Sequence record: NC_028903.1
Source of the DNA: Escherichia phage 172-1
Strand: one strand, 5' to 3'
Length of the DNA: 64,000 nt
Below the pieces are notes generated by a model that ran no database searches, was not told the DNA's origin, and saw only the letters and a program-made list of their open reading frames with translations. This document shows, in pieces, positions 6,109-62,212 of the stretch; the first letter of the stretch is position 1, and each line of letters begins with the position of its first letter. A program made the position numbers and the translations under genes.

Positions 6109-8667
6109 ATGATCGTTTATAATAACCAAGCACCTGATGCAGTGAATAACGTTGGGCAGTTTGGTGCTACTGAAGGCTCTATCGGAGCTTACAAGCAAGC
6201 AGCAGAATACGCAGCTGACTCCAAATATTGGGCACTGCTAGCGGAATCTAAGTTTGGTACAATTGATGACTTGATCGCTGAAGTAGAACGTCTGTATCAA
6301 CAAGGTGTTCTGATGAAGCAGGATATTGAAGATCTTAAACAAGATTTTAAAGATCAAGATGCTCGTCTTATGACCTTGATTGCCCAGACTAACGCAGCTG
6401 TTTCTGATGCGAATAACGCTGTTGCTTTAATCAATCAGAAACTTATTGAAGTCCAGAATCAGCTTGACGTTCTGTTAGGAATGTCCGTTGATGTAACCAC
6501 ACTTCCTCCGGGAACTCCGGCTACTGGTTCTTTTAATCCTAACACTGGTGTAATCTCTCTAGGTATCCCAGAAGGCGAACCCGGAAAGGATGGTTCTGTT
6601 AAGGATTTAGACACAGCTCCTACTGGTGTTCCAGAGCTAGGTGATTTAGGTTTCTATGTTGACAAAGATGACAATACCGTCCACAAAACTACTCTAGATA
6701 ACATTGCTAACTTAATCCCATCTGTTCGTTCTGTCTCTATTAACGGCGGTCCAGCTCTTGATGGAGAGGTTGCTCTAACACTTAACAAAGAGACGGTAGG
6801 TTTAGGAAATGTTCTGAACGTCGCTCAGTACAGTCGTCAAGAGATTAATGACAAATTTGACAAGACTACCAAGACATACCAATCAAAAGCAGAAGCTGAT
6901 GCTGATGCTCAGTATCGTCAAGTAGGTGAGAAAGTTTTAGTTTGGGAAGCTACTAAGTATGAATTCTATACTGTTGCTGCTAACAAAACACTGACTCCTG
7001 TTAAAACTGAAGGTAGAATTCTTACCGTTAACTCTCGCTCTCCAGACTCAAGCGGTAATATCGATATCACGATTCCAACAGGTAACCCGTCTTTGTATCT
7101 TGGTGAAATGGTAATGTTCCCTTACGACCCATCTAAGAATATCTCCTACCCAGGAGTTCTTCCTGCTGATGGTCGTCTGGTATCAAAAGAATCTGCTCTC
7201 GACTTAGGCCCATCTCTTGTCAGTGGTCAGCTTCCTGTAGTCTCTGAAACTGAATGGCAAGCAGGGTCTAAACAATATTTCTCATGGGGTAAGCTAGCAG
7301 ATGGGATTACTGATGCGGATTCTACTAATTTCATCAATATTCGACTTCCTGATTGGACTGGAGGGGAGGCAATAAGAGCACCAGATTCTGATAAAGATTC
7401 TCAATACAATGGGTCTGTACAGGCTCAGAAACCTTATGTTGTCACGGTAAATAACCAAGCTCCTGATGAGATTACAGGGAACGTAACCCTCTCCAGATCT
7501 ATCTTGGGAGCAGCTTCTTCTGGTGCAAACTCTGATATAACATCCCTGACAGGACTCACTACAGCTCTCTCTATCGCTCAAGGTGGTACAGGAGGGAAAA
7601 CTCCATCTGAAGCTAGGGCAAACCTAAATCTTGAAAGATTTCAACAAGACAACTCGCAGACTTTGATATATTCTCCTGATTATGCCCGTCGTGTTTATGT
7701 TGACAACACTGGTGGTTCTTGGGGGTGCCAGAACGTAACAGATGGCGGTTTTATTGCTCTTGGTATTCCTCAAGGGGGTACAGGAGCTAAGGATGCTGCT
7801 GGTGCACGAAGTAATCTCGGTTTGGGTTCAGTGTCCACACTAAACAATATACCCGTAGCTAATGGAGGTACTGGAGCAACTACTGCTGCTGGTGCTCGTT
7901 CCAACTTAGGTCTTGGGAGTGTTTCTACTCTGGATAATGTACCTATTGCTAATGGTGGGACAGGGGCAGCTGATGCTGCTGGTGCAAGGTTTAATATTGG
8001 AGCACTAAGTAGCACCCCAGCAAATACAGGTGTTGGTGGTACTGGTAATCGCGTCCAACATGCATCCGGGAATGGCCTGTTTACTTTAGACATGTTTAAC
8101 TGCTACTGGTATATGCAGCCAGAGGATACTAACTTCTGGGTTGCCCACAGTGTATCATATGCAGGATCTGGTGGCGAAGCCTCTGGATACGGTCGTATAA
8201 CTTACGCAATAAAGATTGCAGATGGAACAACAAAATATGTCCATTGTCTTACAAACAAAAATACTATTACCGATGTAAGCGGTTTTATCAAAGCGGCATC
8301 TCCGGTAGTTAATATTTACGCCAACGGTCGATATGAGACGAACGATGAATCTGAGGGGGTCAATGTCATTCGGCAAGGTGTCGGTGAGTATTTGATTACC
8401 GGTTGCCTAGGCTTAAACGCAGATGCAAAATGGGGAGGTATCGACGGCGGCTTTGAAATCCCTATTGACCGCAACAAACAGCCTAGGGTTTGGCTTGATT
8501 ATGAGGTTAAAGAAGATGGTTCTATTTTAGTCAAGACCTATCACAGAACCCATTCAACATCCCCAGTTTTTGCTAGAAACGAGTTGGAAGGTTTTTCTGA
8601 CGGTGACCCAATCGATATCCCTGCCGATGCTTTCGTATCAGTTCGTGTTGAAATGCCTTCTAATTAA
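6109..8667 (+). CDS. tail fiber protein
   Basis: 852 aa; tandem fiber-type repeats GGTGA..AAGARSNLGLGSVSTL(N/D)N(I/V)P(V/I)ANGGTGA in the central region. Confidence 0.6.
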   Translation: MIVYNNQAPDAVNNVGQFGATEGSIGAYKQAAEYAADSKYWALLAESKFGTIDDLIAEVERLYQQGVLMKQDIEDLKQDFKDQDARLMTLIAQTNAAVSDANNAVALINQKLIEVQNQLDVLLGMSVDVTTLPPGTPATGSFNPNTGVISLGIPEGEPGKDGSVKDLDTAPTGVPELGDLGFYVDKDDNTVHKTTLDNIANLIPSVRSVSINGGPALDGEVALTLNKETVGLGNVLNVAQYSRQEINDKFDKTTKTYQSKAEADADAQYRQVGEKVLVWEATKYEFYTVAANKTLTPVKTEGRILTVNSRSPDSSGNIDITIPTGNPSLYLGEMVMFPYDPSKNISYPGVLPADGRLVSKESALDLGPSLVSGQLPVVSETEWQAGSKQYFSWGKLADGITDADSTNFINIRLPDWTGGEAIRAPDSDKDSQYNGSVQAQKPYVVTVNNQAPDEITGNVTLSRSILGAASSGANSDITSLTGLTTALSIAQGGTGGKTPSEARANLNLERFQQDNSQTLIYSPDYARRVYVDNTGGSWGCQNVTDGGFIALGIPQGGTGAKDAAGARSNLGLGSVSTLNNIPVANGGTGATTAAGARSNLGLGSVSTLDNVPIANGGTGAADAAGARFNIGALSSTPANTGVGGTGNRVQHASGNGLFTLDMFNCYWYMQPEDTNFWVAHSVSYAGSGGEASGYGRITYAIKIADGTTKYVHCLTNKNTITDVSGFIKAASPVVNIYANGRYETNDESEGVNVIRQGVGEYLITGCLGLNADAKWGGIDGGFEIPIDRNKQPRVWLDYEVKEDGSILVKTYHRTHSTSPVFARNELEGFSDGDPIDIPADAFVSVRVEMPSN

Positions 8668-8676
8668 TTTAACAAC

Positions 8677-8695
8677 GCTCCCTTCGGGGAGCTTT
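8677..8695 (+). terminator. UUCG-tetraloop hairpin, weak terminator
   Basis: gctccc-ttcg-gggagc followed by ttt only. Confidence 0.3.
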
Positions 8696-8707
8696 AAGGA
8701 GATTTAA

Positions 8708-10915
8708 ATGGCTAGAGAATTAATGCCCAAATCTGGCATAATGATGCCTCATGTAGTTGTGACTAGAGATGCGGCAGTTGTTGGTGTTTCTACAGTAGAT
8801 GGTCAGGCAGGAGCTGTGAATCTGACTGATAAATACTTACAGAAGACAGACGCAGCTGCTACATATCAAACTAAAGTGGAAGGAGCATCTAAAGATTTTG
8901 TACTGGATTCGATTCAACCTATTATGTCTGGTGCCCTATTCAGGGAAGATCCTTGGGTTGTTAACGACACTCCTTTCCGTTCTACTGGCGCTAACGGTGT
9001 AGAGTCAGTTGATATGATGAAGGTTACTTCTGATAACTCAATCAAGATTGGTAGCTATGCCTCTTCAGTTCAAGGGGTAGAGATTCATTCTGCCGGACGT
9101 CTTCAAGTAGTAGACCAGAACGACTCTGGAGTAGAAACTAAATATCCAGTTTATTCTAAACGTTATCGCCCAGAGATTGAGGATTTGCCTTTTGCTGCAA
9201 TTGGTTCTTATGTCAAAGATTCTAAGGGTCGTACTGTTGGGGTTACTCGTACAGGGATTAACTCTGATATCAAACAACTCACACAGAAGGTTACTTTCTC
9301 TCAACCTGTAACTGTTCCTGATGCAGTTGGAGATTATGATGCAGTTACTTTGAGGCAGCTTCGTAATAGCGGTGGTGGTTCTGGTGGTCCTACAATGAGT
9401 GGCATTTCTAACTTTGGGGTTGGGGATTTTCATTTACGTGATAGTCGTGCTTTCATCCCAGCTTTTGAGGTGGTGTCTGATGGTCAGCTTTTAAACCGCG
9501 CTGACTATCCAGATCTGTGGGCTTACGCTCAGCTCTTATCCCCTATTTCTGACGAGGTTTGGAAATCCTCAATGTACAACAGAGGTAAGTACTCTACTGG
9601 CGACGGTTCTACTACTTTCCGCGTCCCTGACCGAAATGGTGTGCAGAGAAATGGTGTTAATGGCTTTACTGGTGAAGACTCTCTCGGTGCCTTATATGGT
9701 AGAGGTGATGGTGGAGGGTCTTCTAGCAATGGCCTCGTTTTTGATTCAGCAGCGCCTAATATCACTGGTTTTATTAGAACAGCTACAAATGCTTCTGTTT
9801 TCGAGTCTGGGTTAAATGGAACATCTGGTGTTTTTTATGGAGAAGAGTTTCAGAGGTATGCAAACATACAGCCAACAGAGGGGGCGACAAGCTCCTACCC
9901 AAGAACTGTCCAGTTTAATGCATCTAGGAGTAGCCCTATCTATGGACGCTCTGATGGTGAAATCATGGGTCGTAACTTTGTTGGTGTTTGGACTATTCGT
10001 GCTCATGGTGGCTTTACTGCTGCTAACACTTCTTGGTCTGTTATTAATAGTGATGCTTCAGAACAACCTTCAGGTACTCCTATTACTGGTGGATTGGTTT
10101 CTTCTAAGTATGTAGTTGGAGGTGTGGATAAGTATCGGTCTTCTATCCAGTTGATAGGGTCTAATGAAGTTGATTTATCAACTAGAATTACGACTATAAA
10201 TGATAGATATTCCATCGGGGCTGCAACTTGGGATTTTAAGTTAGATGGTAAACTTGTGTTCAACAAGAGTCTGAATCCTATGGGAACAGGGAATTCTCCT
10301 GGAAACACCTATTTAACTCTAGCTAATACTTGGATGAGTTCTTCATACGCTGGATATGTAGGGCTTGTTGGTGGTGGGGTTGGGGTTTCTAACGGAGGTT
10401 GGAGAAACTTCATTTCTTTAGGCGCTCTAATCTACCCGAACAGTGCTCACCCAACTGCTGTTATTTCTCAGGTTTATGACTATGACCTTCCTACAGGAAA
10501 TCAACCTAATGGAGATATTGTCAGAAACACCTCTTTCAATGCGGAGAGCTATGATATCACTTTCGGGAACAACAGTGGGACTACTAATTACATCTTCAGT
10601 AAATCTCCAGTCTCTGACGAGCGTCTAAAACATAGCATCAAAGAGGAGGGGACAGCCACAGCTCTTTCTAACCTAAACAAGATGGAGTATAAAACCTTTA
10701 TCTATAATTATGATGAGAAAGCAACTGTAAGGCGTGGGTTTATTGCCCAGCAACTTGAAGCTATTGACCCTCAATATGTTAGGAAGTATAAAACCTTCAA
10801 AGGTACTGATACCCTAGCTTTAGATGAGAATGTGTTGCTTTTAGATGCAATTGCTGCTATCCAAGAGCTTTCTAAAAAGGTTGAGGCTTTAGAAGCAAAA
10901 CTAGCAGAGAAGTAA
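8708..10915 (+). CDS. tail spike or fiber with C-terminal intramolecular chaperone (peptidase S74-like) domain
   Basis: 735 aa; C-terminal ~100 aa begins VSDERLKHSIKEEG and ends in a coiled coil, matching the autoproteolytic chaperone domain of endosialidase-type spikes. Confidence 0.6.
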   Translation: MARELMPKSGIMMPHVVVTRDAAVVGVSTVDGQAGAVNLTDKYLQKTDAAATYQTKVEGASKDFVLDSIQPIMSGALFREDPWVVNDTPFRSTGANGVESVDMMKVTSDNSIKIGSYASSVQGVEIHSAGRLQVVDQNDSGVETKYPVYSKRYRPEIEDLPFAAIGSYVKDSKGRTVGVTRTGINSDIKQLTQKVTFSQPVTVPDAVGDYDAVTLRQLRNSGGGSGGPTMSGISNFGVGDFHLRDSRAFIPAFEVVSDGQLLNRADYPDLWAYAQLLSPISDEVWKSSMYNRGKYSTGDGSTTFRVPDRNGVQRNGVNGFTGEDSLGALYGRGDGGGSSSNGLVFDSAAPNITGFIRTATNASVFESGLNGTSGVFYGEEFQRYANIQPTEGATSSYPRTVQFNASRSSPIYGRSDGEIMGRNFVGVWTIRAHGGFTAANTSWSVINSDASEQPSGTPITGGLVSSKYVVGGVDKYRSSIQLIGSNEVDLSTRITTINDRYSIGAATWDFKLDGKLVFNKSLNPMGTGNSPGNTYLTLANTWMSSSYAGYVGLVGGGVGVSNGGWRNFISLGALIYPNSAHPTAVISQVYDYDLPTGNQPNGDIVRNTSFNAESYDITFGNNSGTTNYIFSKSPVSDERLKHSIKEEGTATALSNLNKMEYKTFIYNYDEKATVRRGFIAQQLEAIDPQYVRKYKTFKGTDTLALDENVLLLDAIAAIQELSKKVEALEAKLAEK

Positions 10916-10919
10916 GATA

Positions 10920-10937
10920 AGCCCCTTCGGGGGCTTT
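10920..10937 (+). terminator. UUCG-tetraloop hairpin, weak terminator
   Basis: agcccc-ttcg-ggggct then tt. Confidence 0.35.
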
Positions 10938-11007: not shown

Positions 11008-11226
11008 ATGAAAATGATGAAACAGGCTGCATACGGTTTAATCTGTTTAGGTGCAGGTGTTGTGGTGTCAACCGCAGTTCCTGTAAGCGCAGTTCATCCA
11101 TTAGTAACTGTCCCTGCTCCAGTAGAGAAGCTTAGCTCTCAATGTAAGCAGAGAACAATTCAAAATAACCTAGTTGTTATTTGTCCTGATGCTGAATCTA
11201 ACGCTCTGAGAAAGATACTACCTTAA
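11008..11226 (+). CDS. small membrane or secreted protein, holin candidate
   Basis: 72 aa with one N-terminal hydrophobic segment AAYGLICLGAGVVVSTAVPVSAV, directly upstream of endolysin. Confidence 0.3.
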   Translation: MKMMKQAAYGLICLGAGVVVSTAVPVSAVHPLVTVPAPVEKLSSQCKQRTIQNNLVVICPDAESNALRKILP

Positions 11227-11254: not shown

Positions 11255-11746
11255 ATGGATAACGCCGCATTGCCACCTGTACAACTAAACTTAAGCCCAG
11301 CTGGAATGGAATTCATCATGAAGCATGAGGGTATGAGAACCAAAGCTTATAAAGATTCCGCAGGTATCTGGACGATATGTGTAGGGGCTACGCGCGATAT
11401 GAATGGTTATCCGGTTAGACAAGGATTAACGTATTCTATAGAGGATTGTCTAGCTCTGCTAGATAGAGACACACAAGACTCTGTTCGTGCTACTCAGAAG
11501 AACATAAAGGTTCCTTTACTAGTTCACGAGTTTGATGCACTCACTTCTTTCAACTTCAATGTTGGCAGTGGTGCTTTGAGAACATCTAAGTTAAGGAAGG
11601 TTATCAATGGAGAAGTGAAAGGGGATGTTTATTCCGAATTTCTTCGTTGGGATAAAATAACGGTCAGGGGAGAAAAGCAGAGAAGTCAGGGTCTTCATAA
11701 CAGAAGGGTTGCAGAAGCTGATCTTTACACTGAAGGTAAATATTAA
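11255..11746 (+). CDS. endolysin, GH24 (T4-type) lysozyme
   Basis: MEFIMKHEGMRTKAYKDSAGIWTICVGAT... matches the E/D/T catalytic region and fold signature of phage lysozymes. Confidence 0.75.
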   Translation: MDNAALPPVQLNLSPAGMEFIMKHEGMRTKAYKDSAGIWTICVGATRDMNGYPVRQGLTYSIEDCLALLDRDTQDSVRATQKNIKVPLLVHEFDALTSFNFNVGSGALRTSKLRKVINGEVKGDVYSEFLRWDKITVRGEKQRSQGLHNRRVAEADLYTEGKY

Positions 11747-62135: not shown

Positions 62136-62212
62136 TGGCGCACCGTGGAGGATTCTAACCTCCAACCAATTTCTTAGAAGGAAACTGCTCTATACAATTG
62201 AGCTAACGGCGC
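62136..62212 (-). tRNA. tRNA-Arg (anticodon UCU)
   Basis: hand-folded cloverleaf: acceptor GCGCCGU/ACGGUGC, D stem GCUC/GAGC, anticodon stem GUUUC/GAAAU with loop CUUCUAA, T stem GGAGG/CCUCC with loop UUAGAAU, discriminator G and encoded CCA. Confidence 0.65.

What the first reader, a model, noticed from the sequence alone, without database searches (positions are those of the whole stretch)
10613..10915. Tail spike ends in an autoproteolytic intramolecular chaperone domain
The last 100 residues of ORF 8708..10915 start with SDERLKHSIKEEG and finish in a coiled-coil, as in the C-terminal chaperone (peptidase S74) domains of endosialidase-type spikes, which cleave at the Ser of S-D-x-R-x-K after trimer folding. 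The mature spike would lack this segment, and the upstream domain probably carries the receptor-binding or depolymerase activity.
Basis: partly seen in the sequence, partly recalled or inferred. Interest (0 to 1): 0.45.

Follow-up and report, generated by a model that had tools for sequence, protein, structure and literature searches.

The report
Self-cleaving chaperone end of tail fibre
The last 100 residues of this phage tail-fibre gene are a well-known self-removing folding domain, already described and shown to cleave in related phages, so the finding is correct but ordinary; the protein is a receptor-binding fibre, not an enzyme-bearing spike.

Summary
ORF 8708..10915 (735 aa) ends in SDERLKHSIKEEG…AEK, and this segment matches Pfam Peptidase_S74 well above threshold (41.5 bits against a cut-off of 22).

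- **Conservation:** Ser636, Lys641, Gly677 and Ala680 are the only invariant residues in the variable C-terminal 265 residues across 121 homologues.
- **Fold:** the predicted fold (pLDDT about 90) matches all four solved chaperone structures: MyRF 7DC3, endoNF 3GW6, GA-1 3GUD and T5 4UW8.
- **C-terminus:** the last helix (707-734) has a clean heptad pattern.

The window is a Kuravirus (phiEco32/NJ01-like podovirus). The gene is the distal subunit of the branched long tail fibre, equivalent to phiEco32 gp15 and SU10 gp13. It carries a T4-gp12-like domain and a T5-like receptor-binding domain. No sialidase or pectin-lyase fold was found.

Self-cleavage at the aligned Ser-Asp site was shown by mass spectrometry for the homologue EP335 gp13. 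The domain is also drawn in the 2025 BASEL collection paper.

The released piece is predicted to be 99-100 residues (11.3-11.4 kDa). Which side of Ser636 is cut remains unsettled. This is already known biology and of low interest.

The parts
8708..10915 (+). Gene for the distal subunit of the long (branched, 'T-shaped') tail fibre, 735 aa. It is the orthologue of phiEco32 gp15, NJ01_025 and SU10 gp13.
   Evidence: ORF. PHROG 6921 'tail fiber' matches full length. It is 84-85% identical to phiEco32 and NJ01 and 60% to SU10 gp13. Synteny is proximal fibre, then this gene, then holin. An AAGGAG ribosome-binding site lies 7 nt before the ATG.
8708..9307 (+). aa 1-200: conserved N-terminal module, inferred to dock the distal subunit onto the proximal fibre protein.
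   Evidence: 78-98% identical across Gordonclarkvirinae homologues whatever their C-terminal cassette. Golomidova 2016 reports that the first 45 aa of the phiEco32 gp15 type are shared with DT57C LtfB and proposes the gp14-gp15 contact (PMC4728585). The AlphaFold2 monomer is unreliable here (pLDDT below 40).
9314..10117 (+). aa 203-470: first receptor-binding region (T4-gp12-like 'collar' type), containing a hypervariable stretch at aa 341-425 (nt 9728-9982).
   Evidence: Matches DT57C LtfA 559-884. There is a sub-threshold PF07484 Collar hit at 294-311, and PF07484 is precomputed for homologues P0008 and P0022. pLDDT is 60-88. The hypervariable segment is 29-36% identical to NJ01/phiEco32 but 99% to P0002. 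The domain naming follows PMC11990801 and PMC8217332.
10118..10612 (+). aa 471-635: second, distal receptor-binding cassette ('T5-like RBD2' in the BASEL paper). This is the part the chaperone is expected to fold and cap.
   Evidence: It behaves as a cassette: 87-95% identical in 22-23 homologues and 11-28% in the rest. The monomer model is unreliable (pLDDT below 50 for 520-633), so its fold is taken from PMC11990801 and was not shown here.
10613..10912 (+). aa 636-735: intramolecular chaperone / Peptidase_S74 domain (stop codon at 10913-10915).
10613..10630 (+). S636-D-E-R-L-K641: scissile/nucleophile Ser and general-base Lys of the Ser-Lys dyad.
   Evidence: S636 and K641 are invariant in 26, 122 and 121 homologues. 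The motif S-[DG]-x3-K is present in all 121. The profile aligns them with MyRF S587(A)/K592 and with SDERHK of GA-1 gp12. The spacing equals endoNF S911/K916 and T5 S1264/K1269 (PMC8326128, PMC4690869).
10736..10750 (+). G677-F-I-A-Q681: conserved core motif of the chaperone domain.
   Evidence: G677 and A680 are invariant, and I679 and Q681 are at least 90% conserved. The Ser-to-Gly spacing of 41 is the mode (93 of 137) among distant representatives. The equivalent Gly (endoNF G956, MYRF G626) is needed for function (PMC3742443).
10778..10822 (+). aa 691-705: short beta-hairpin, the counterpart of the 'tentacle' that embraces the upstream domain in endoNF and T5.
   Evidence: Strands at 691-695 and 701-705. 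Most homologues carry 4-18 extra residues here (alignment; chaperone lengths of 100-118 aa).
10826..10909 (+). aa 707-734: C-terminal helix, predicted to form the central trimeric coiled coil.
   Evidence: Helix 707-734. Heptad a/d residues are L711, A714, I718, L721, V725, L728 and L732. L721 and L728 are at least 90% conserved. There is a sub-threshold PF13887 MYRF_ICA hit at 705-735.
6109..8667 (+). Upstream partner gene: proximal long-tail-fibre subunit (852 aa; phiEco32 gp14 / SU10 gp12 equivalent). It has no chaperone domain.
   Evidence: PHROG 10305 and PF25670 Phage_tail_C_2. NJ01_024 annotation. SU10 structure paper (PMC9509320).

Best explanation
The window comes from a Kuravirus (phiEco32/NJ01-like podovirus of E. 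coli). ORF 8708..10915 encodes the distal subunit of its long tail fibre. Residues 636-735 are a C-terminal intramolecular chaperone of the Peptidase_S74 family.

Proposed mechanism:
1. Three nascent chains are brought into register by the C-terminal helices (707-734), which form a trimeric coiled coil.
2. The small alpha/beta body and its short hairpin (691-705) template the folding of the intertwined distal receptor-binding domain (aa 471-635).
3. Once the trimer is correctly folded, Lys641 activates Ser636 and the chain is cut at Ser636.
4. The trimeric 11.3-11.4 kDa chaperone falls away, leaving a roughly 67.8 kDa mature fibre subunit whose distal tip is now uncovered for receptor binding, most likely to O-antigen.

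Shown here: the domain, its position, the dyad and its invariance, and the fold. Taken from published experiments on relatives: that such domains cleave and that cleavage unmasks binding. Inferred: that this particular allele does the same.
For: - **Family match:** PF13884 at 41.5 bits against a cut-off of 22, covering the whole model.
- **Constraint:** in the cassette-like, highly variable C-terminal 265 aa, the only invariant columns across 121-122 homologues are S636, K641, G677 and A680. The motif S-[DG]-x3-K is present in 121 of 121. Among the best 149 of 461 distant cluster representatives, 137 have S-x4-K about 41 aa before G-x-I-A-Q, and in 135 of those 137 the Ser lies 90-149 aa from the C-terminus.
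- **Fold:** pLDDT is 87-96 for residues 636-735. All four solved chaperone types are recovered: 7DC3, 3GW6, 3GUD and 4UW8. A profile search of the PDB aligns the dyad with MyRF S587A/K592 and GA-1 SDERHK.
- **Experimental precedent in the same virus subfamily:** EP335 gp13 loses 11.8 kDa at Ser621/Asp622 (PMC8217332). That site aligns with S636/D637 here, and the reported mass loss fits my recomputed fragment mass.
- **T5 pb1:** S1264A blocks cleavage, and the uncleaved protein no longer competes with phage infection (PMC4690869).
- **Prior description:** the BASEL paper draws this chaperone on Gordonclarkvirinae distal fibres (PMC11990801).
Against: - No experiment exists for this allele or for its chaperone subtype. 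The EP335 chaperone is only 26-28% identical to this one.
- The 'folding-sensor' arginine of endoNF (R897) and T5 (R1250), 14 residues before the Ser, is absent here (N622) and in all 121 homologues. How folding is coupled to cleavage in this clade is therefore not established.
- Trimer geometry, the coiled coil and the chaperone-to-receptor-domain contacts could not be modelled, because only monomer predictions were available and the receptor domain had pLDDT below 50.
- Papers disagree on the side of the Ser that is cut. T5 is reported as Thr1263|Ser1264, and the GA-1 chain starts at Ser. EP335 is reported as Ser621|Asp622.
Confidence: 0.85

Rival explanations
1. The domain is a genuine S74-type chaperone and trimerisation module, but in this short-hairpin subtype it is not released. 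It stays on the fibre tip as a permanent cap or structural knob.
For: The sensor Arg at -14 is missing. The tentacle hairpin is very short. The BASEL paper notes one Gordonclarkvirinae phage (Bas93) with a largely truncated chaperone domain, so the domain is not handled identically everywhere.
Against: The catalytic Ser and Lys are invariant in 121 homologues although everything around them varies, which is hard to explain without catalysis. EP335 gp13 also lacks Arg at -14 and still cleaves. MyRF cleaves without a stalk arginine (PMC8326128). In T5 the retained chaperone blocks receptor competition.
Confidence: 0.08
2. One reading: an endosialidase-type tail spike whose upstream domain is a polysaccharide depolymerase, matured by the chaperone.
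For: S74 chaperones were first described on endosialidases and K5 lyase. At least one Kuravirus (ES17) carries a pectin-lyase-fold fibre protein at a different locus or allele.
Against: Pfam finds no sialidase, beta-helix or lyase family at E up to 1. Foldseek on the full-length model gives only chaperone and fibre hits; the one tailspike depolymerase hit (8OPZ) has E 1.8. The upstream 330 aa align to the non-enzymatic DT57C L-shaped fibre at E 7e-98. Homologue EP335 gp13 binds cells, and no enzymatic activity is reported for it. The BASEL paper classes these proteins as non-enzymatic fibres.
Confidence: 0.04
3. Chance resemblance: a helical C-terminal tail that happens to begin with S-D-x-R-x-K.
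For: None beyond the shortness of the motif.
Confidence: 0.01

Closest known systems
EP335 gp13 (Nieuwekanaalvirus, Gordonclarkvirinae), tail fibre with a C-terminal intramolecular chaperone; cleavage shown by LC-ESI-MS (PMC8217332)
   Same: Same gene position (after the proximal fibre gene, before the holin), same length class (729 vs 735 aa) and 54% overall identity. The N-terminal 340 aa are nearly identical, there is a gp12-like central domain, and the chaperone begins S-D-E-R-I-K at the aligned position.
   Different: The distal receptor-binding cassette and the chaperone are of another subtype (16-28% identity over aa 471-735). The EP335 chaperone is 108-109 aa with a longer insert before the last helix. 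Its receptor (O157/O26) need not apply here.
phiEco32 gp15 / NJ01_025 / SU10 gp13, Kuravirus distal long-tail-fibre subunit
   Same: Orthologues. The chaperone segment is 100% identical to NJ01, and to phiEco32 it is 100% over 636-700 and 94% over 701-735. Architecture and synteny are the same.
   Different: This allele differs in the hypervariable part of the first receptor-binding region (aa 341-425, 29-36% identity) and has a 9-residue insertion near aa 314-324. SU10 gp13 carries a different distal cassette and chaperone subtype (42-46% identity).
T5 pb1 and DT57C LtfA L-shaped tail fibres with intramolecular chaperone (PDB 4UW8, 8HQZ)
   Same: A non-enzymatic fibre ending in an S74 chaperone. 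The Ser/Lys spacing of 5 and the terminal trimeric coiled coil are shared. DT57C LtfA aligns over aa 203-533 and 636-734, and 4UW8 is recovered by fold.
   Different: The T5 chaperone is 133 aa with 50 Å tentacles and uses Arg1250 at -14. Here the domain is 100 aa with a 15-residue hairpin and no Arg at -14. These are siphovirus fibres; this one is from a podovirus.
[quoted passage not shown]
   Same: Same domain family, the same Ser-Lys dyad, a conserved Gly (G956 / G677), and release after trimer folding.
   Different: endoNF is an enzymatic spike with a sialidase propeller and a triple beta-helix stalk, very long tentacles (T977-H1026) and the Arg897 sensor. None of these is present here.
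MyRF ICA domain (PDB 7DC3)
   Different: It is a eukaryotic ER-membrane transcription factor. The domain is internal rather than C-terminal, and it stays on the membrane after cleavage.

Membership tests
Peptidase_S74 / C-terminal intramolecular chaperone domain (Pfam PF13884) | Sequence match to the family profile above the curated threshold | tested here: met
   41.5 bits against a gathering score of 22, E 1.6e-10, model positions 1-57 of 58 on aa 636-691.
Peptidase_S74 / C-terminal intramolecular chaperone domain (Pfam PF13884) | Ser-Lys catalytic dyad, S-x4-K, at the N-terminal boundary of the domain | tested here: met
   S636 and K641 are invariant in 121 homologues. They align to MyRF S587A/K592 and GA-1 SDERHK. 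The spacing is the same as endoNF S911/K916 and T5 S1264/K1269.
Peptidase_S74 / C-terminal intramolecular chaperone domain (Pfam PF13884) | Located at the extreme C-terminus of a trimeric phage fibre or spike protein | tested here: met
   aa 636-735 of 735. The same terminal position is seen in 135 of 137 distant representatives. The trimeric state itself was not tested.
Peptidase_S74 / C-terminal intramolecular chaperone domain (Pfam PF13884) | Characteristic fold: small alpha/beta body, beta-hairpin 'tentacle', long C-terminal helix forming a trimeric coiled coil | tested here: met
   The monomer model has pLDDT 87-96. Matches are 7DC3, 3GW6, 3GUD and 4UW8. The heptad pattern covers 711-732. 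The coiled coil as a trimer was not modelled.
Peptidase_S74 / C-terminal intramolecular chaperone domain (Pfam PF13884) | Autoproteolytic release after folding | not testable with these tools
   Shown by mass spectrometry for EP335 gp13 and by S1264A for T5 pb1. No data exist for this allele or its chaperone subtype.
Peptidase_S74 / C-terminal intramolecular chaperone domain (Pfam PF13884) | Upstream arginine from a neighbouring chain acting as folding sensor / oxyanion stabiliser (endoNF R897, T5 R1250, both at -14) | tested here: inconclusive
   Position -14 is N622. No homologue of 121 has Arg at -14. R606 (-30) and K632 (-4) are invariant within this cassette type. MyRF shows this feature is not universal in the family. 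A trimer model is needed.
Endosialidase-type tail spike (GH58 sialidase spike) | Sialidase beta-propeller and triple-beta-helix stalk upstream of the chaperone | tested here: not met
   No endosialidase Pfam family at E up to 1. No such fold among Foldseek hits to the full-length model, with the caveat that the model is poor outside aa 250-520 and 636-735.
Kuravirus/Gordonclarkvirinae distal long-tail-fibre subunit (phiEco32 gp15, SU10 gp13) | Orthology and synteny: follows the proximal fibre gene, precedes holin and endolysin, and has a conserved N-terminal 200 aa | tested here: met
   60-85% full-length identity to SU10, phiEco32 and NJ01. The N-terminal 200 aa are 78-98% identical. Gene order is shown.

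The most novel reading that the evidence does not exclude
In this clade of fibres the coupling between folding and cleavage may differ from the endoNF/T5 paradigm. There is no arginine at -14 in any of 121 homologues, the tentacle is reduced to a 15-residue hairpin, and the only measured relative (EP335 gp13) is reported to cut after the Ser rather than before it. If real, this would be a variant S74 mechanism, closer to MyRF, in which trimerisation of the chaperone itself, rather than completion of the upstream beta-structure, licenses cleavage.
Probability: 0.15. Interest if true: 0.35.

Novelty: already known. Interest (0 to 1): 0.12.

Why it matters
The value is mainly practical.

- **Annotation:** the mature virion protein ends at residue 635 or 636, not 735.
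- **Expression:** the fibre must be expressed with the chaperone present in order to fold, and an S636A mutant would trap a capped, probably non-binding form.
- **Host-range engineering:** swaps of the distal cassette should carry a compatible chaperone.

It adds no new biology. The domain family, its presence on Kuravirus distal fibres and its self-cleavage in a subfamily relative are all published.

Tried and rejected
- **Word-indexed homologue search** with the C-terminal 200 aa returned only one hit. The full-length query was used instead.
- **AlphaFold2 monomer models** gave pLDDT below 50 for aa 1-244 and 520-633. I therefore draw no conclusion on the fold of the distal receptor domain, on chaperone-domain contacts or on the sensor residue.
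- **Depolymerase reading** was rejected: there are no enzyme families or folds.
- **'Unusually minimal chaperone'** was considered and rejected as a novelty. 100 aa is the shortest among the 121 close homologues but sits in the commonest length bin (100-109) among distant relatives.
- **Tandem-repeat scan** of both fibre genes found nothing at DNA level.
- **Exact protein look-up** found no record. The best relative is P0002 at 96% identity.
- **Literature searches** for 8JOV, for endoNF Ser911/Lys916 and for phiEco32 virion proteomics found nothing usable in the held library. Whether phiEco32 gp15 is processed in virions therefore could not be checked.
- **Promoter/terminator scan** around the gene was not enriched over shuffles.
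Full report
**What is in the sequence.** The ORF 8708..10915 exists on the + strand and encodes 735 aa. The stretch 10613..10915 translates to SDERLKHSIKEEG…LEAKLAEK followed by the stop. Ser636 is codon 10613-10615 and Lys641 is codon 10628-10630. An AAGGAG ribosome-binding site sits 7 nt before the ATG. No ORF of 60 aa or more overlaps 10629-10915 on either strand other than the gene itself.

**Is it more than chance?** Pfam PF13884 (Peptidase_S74, 'chaperone of endosialidase') matches aa 636-691 across 57 of its 58 positions, at 41.5 bits (gathering score 22), E 1.6e-10. The isolated 100 residues give 46.2 bits. PF13887 (MYRF_ICA, the C-terminal helix of the same domain) gives a sub-threshold match on 705-735. 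A phmmer scan of 1.84 billion cluster representatives with the 100 residues finds 461 clusters at E ≤ 1e-3. Among the best 149, 137 have an S-x4-K motif, most often exactly 41 residues before a G-x-I-A-Q core as here. In 135 of those 137 the Ser lies 90-149 residues from the C-terminus.

**Where the window comes from and what the gene is.** The two-gene block 6109-10915 is 95% identical to Escherichia phage NJ01 and 91% to phiEco32 (genus Kuravirus, Gordonclarkvirinae). The gene order is:
- proximal tail fibre (6109..8667),
- this gene,
- holin (11008..11226),
- endolysin (11255..11746).

This order is the same as in NJ01, phiEco32, SU10 and EP335. In SU10 the long tail fibre is a trimer of the proximal protein gp12 plus a trimer of the distal protein gp13 (PMC9509320). 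The window ORF is 60% identical to SU10 gp13 and 84.5% to phiEco32 gp15. Golomidova et al. report that phiEco32 gp14 and gp15 form a branched fibre, and that the related T5-like LtfA/LtfB proteins carry pfam13884 self-cleaving ends (PMC4728585). The protein is therefore a fibre subunit, not a spike.

**Domain layout.**
- **Solved relative.** Against solved structures the only strong sequence relative is DT57C LtfA (8HQZ chain d), E 7e-98. It aligns aa 203-533 to LtfA 559-884 and aa 636-734 to LtfA 959-1071.
- **Segmental identity.** Identities against 25 homologues show a mosaic:
  - aa 1-200 is conserved (78-98%);
  - aa 201-340 is mostly conserved;
  - aa 341-425 is hypervariable (29-36% to NJ01 and phiEco32, 99% to the metagenomic protein P0002);
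  - aa 426-470 is conserved;
  - aa 471-635 is a cassette that is either about 90% or about 20% identical;
  - aa 636-735 is the chaperone, which mostly travels with that cassette.
- **Published description.** The 2025 BASEL paper describes exactly this layout for Gordonclarkvirinae distal fibres. It reports a Gp12-like receptor-binding domain 1, a T5-like receptor-binding domain 2, and a C-terminal intramolecular chaperone domain (PMC11990801).

**Catalytic residues.** In alignments of 26, 122 and 121 homologues, the only invariant columns in the variable C-terminal 265 residues are S636, K641, G677 and A680. D637, I644, I679, Q681, E684, L721, K723, E726 and L728 are at least 90% conserved. 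All 121 sequences start the domain with S-[D/G]-x-x-x-K. A profile built from these homologues hits:
- MyRF ICA (7DC3, E 1e-10),
- 8JOV,
- the S16 fibre (6F45),
- the GA-1 neck appendage chaperone (3GUD).

That profile places the dyad on MyRF A587 (the S587A mutant) and K592, and on the SDERHK start of 3GUD. Published mutagenesis shows:
- the Ser and Lys are indispensable in MyRF and endoNF (S911/K916; PMC8326128);
- the residue after the Ser and the conserved Gly (endoNF N912 and G956) are also required (PMC3742443);
- S1264A blocks cleavage in T5 pb1 (PMC4690869).

**Fold.**
- **C-terminal model.** AlphaFold2 on aa 471-735 with 122 sequences gives pLDDT 87-96 for the chaperone. Its elements are helix 650-658, strands 662-664 and 675-677, helix 680-686, hairpin 691-695/701-705, and helix 707-734 (residue numbering from the full-length model).
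- **Foldseek.** Against the PDB the top hits are 7DC3 (E 7e-6, TM 0.57-0.60 on the target) and then 3GW6. The full-length model adds 4UW8, the T5 fibre with its chaperone, at E 3e-5.
- **Coiled coil.** The last helix has hydrophobic a/d positions L711, A714, I718, L721, V725, L728 and L732. This is consistent with the central trimeric coiled coil seen in T5 and MyRF. The trimer itself could not be modelled.

**Evidence for cleavage.** No experiment exists for this allele. The nearest characterised protein is EP335 gp13, 54% identical overall. [quoted passage not shown] In my pairwise alignment EP335 S621-D622 falls exactly on S636-D637. The recomputed mass of EP335 D622-end (11,838 Da, or 11,820 Da after subtracting water) fits the reported loss better than a fragment starting at S621 (11,925 Da). 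One caveat applies: the EP335 chaperone is a different subtype, only 26-28% identical to this one.

**Which side of the Ser is cut?**
- T5 work places the cut at Thr1263|Ser1264, and says K1F behaves likewise.
- The deposited GA-1 chaperone chain begins with the Ser.
- The EP335 paper places the cut after the Ser.

For this protein the two options give 1-635 plus 636-735 (67,715 and 11,397 Da) or 1-636 plus 637-735 (67,802 and 11,310 Da). I cannot decide between them.

**What does not fit the textbook mechanism.** In endoNF and T5 an arginine 14 residues before the Ser (R897, R1250), contributed by a neighbouring chain, senses correct folding and stabilises the transition state. Here position -14 is N622. 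None of the 121 homologues has Arg at -14, and arginines cluster instead at -24 to -32. R606 (-30) and K632 (-4) are invariant within this cassette type. EP335 gp13 shares this absence and still cleaves, and MyRF cleaves without any stalk arginine. I therefore treat this as an open detail rather than evidence against cleavage. The tentacle is short: the domain is 100 aa, against 104-118 in the other homologues, 133 in T5 and more in endoNF. However, 100-109 aa is the commonest size among distant relatives, and long tentacles are known to be the exception (PMC3742443).

**The depolymerase idea.** Pfam at E ≤ 1 finds only Peptidase_S74, a weak Collar hit and the weak MYRF_ICA hit. Foldseek on the full-length model returns only chaperone and fibre structures at significant E-values; one tailspike depolymerase appears at E 1.8. 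Another Kuravirus, ES17, has a pectin-lyase-fold fibre protein, but it is a different protein and showed no lyase activity. The BASEL authors class these fibres as non-enzymatic. Receptor binding, probably to O-antigen, is the likely function of the mature part; this is inferred.

**Verdict.** The 'tail spike / endosialidase-type / depolymerase' framing is not supported. The feature is already known:
- the chaperone segment is 100% identical to that of NJ01;
- source databases already name homologues 'Peptidase S74 domain-containing protein';
- the domain is drawn in PMC11990801;
- processing was measured for EP335 gp13.

Interest is low. The only mildly open points are the cut side and the missing -14 arginine.

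Noticed in passing
window 9728-9982 (aa 341-425 of ORF 8708..10915) and aa 314-324 (nt 9647-9679): This is a hypervariable stretch of the first receptor-binding region. It is only 29-36% identical to NJ01 and phiEco32, although the flanks are 79-98% identical. It is 99% identical to metagenomic protein P0002 and 73% to P0023. A 9-residue insertion (within RNGVNGFTGED) is shared with only a few homologues. This suggests a recent swap of receptor-binding loops and hence a host range different from NJ01.
   Followed up: partly
window 10613-10912 compared with homologues P0009, P0013, P0016, P0021: Four homologues keep the distal receptor cassette at about 90% identity but have a chaperone only 66-68% identical. 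The differences are concentrated just after the dyad (SDENKKHDITPISTEQ… versus SDERLKHSIKEEGTAT…). The chaperone therefore diverges or recombines partly independently of the domain it folds.
   Followed up: partly
window 8677-8692 and 10919-10936: GC-rich hairpins with C-TTCG-G loops (GCTCCCTTCGGGGAGC and AAGCCCCTTCGGGGGCTT) sit immediately before the ribosome-binding site and immediately after the stop codon of the distal fibre gene. Each is followed by only TTT. They could be weak terminators or RNA-stabilising or processing hairpins.
   Followed up: no
window 6109-8667 (+), about aa 555-640 of the 852-aa product: The proximal fibre protein contains about three imperfect protein repeats (…GGTGA..AAGARSNLGLGSVSTL.N.P.ANGGTGA…) and ends in Pfam PF25670 Phage_tail_C_2. 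It has no S74 chaperone. No DNA-level tandem repeat was detected.
   Followed up: partly
window 11008-11226 and 11255-11746 (+): Holin-like (72 aa) and lysozyme-like (163 aa) genes lie directly after the fibre genes, inside the structural module, as in NJ01 and EP335.
   Followed up: no
window 62136-62212 (-): A single tRNA-Arg (anticodon TCT) was found.
   Followed up: no
PDB 8JOV chain 1 (not in the window): This is a 439-aa 'putative tail fiber protein' in a solved phage structure. It carries the identical S-D-E-R-L-K start and a chaperone alignable over its residues 332-437. No paper describing it was found in the held library.
   Followed up: no
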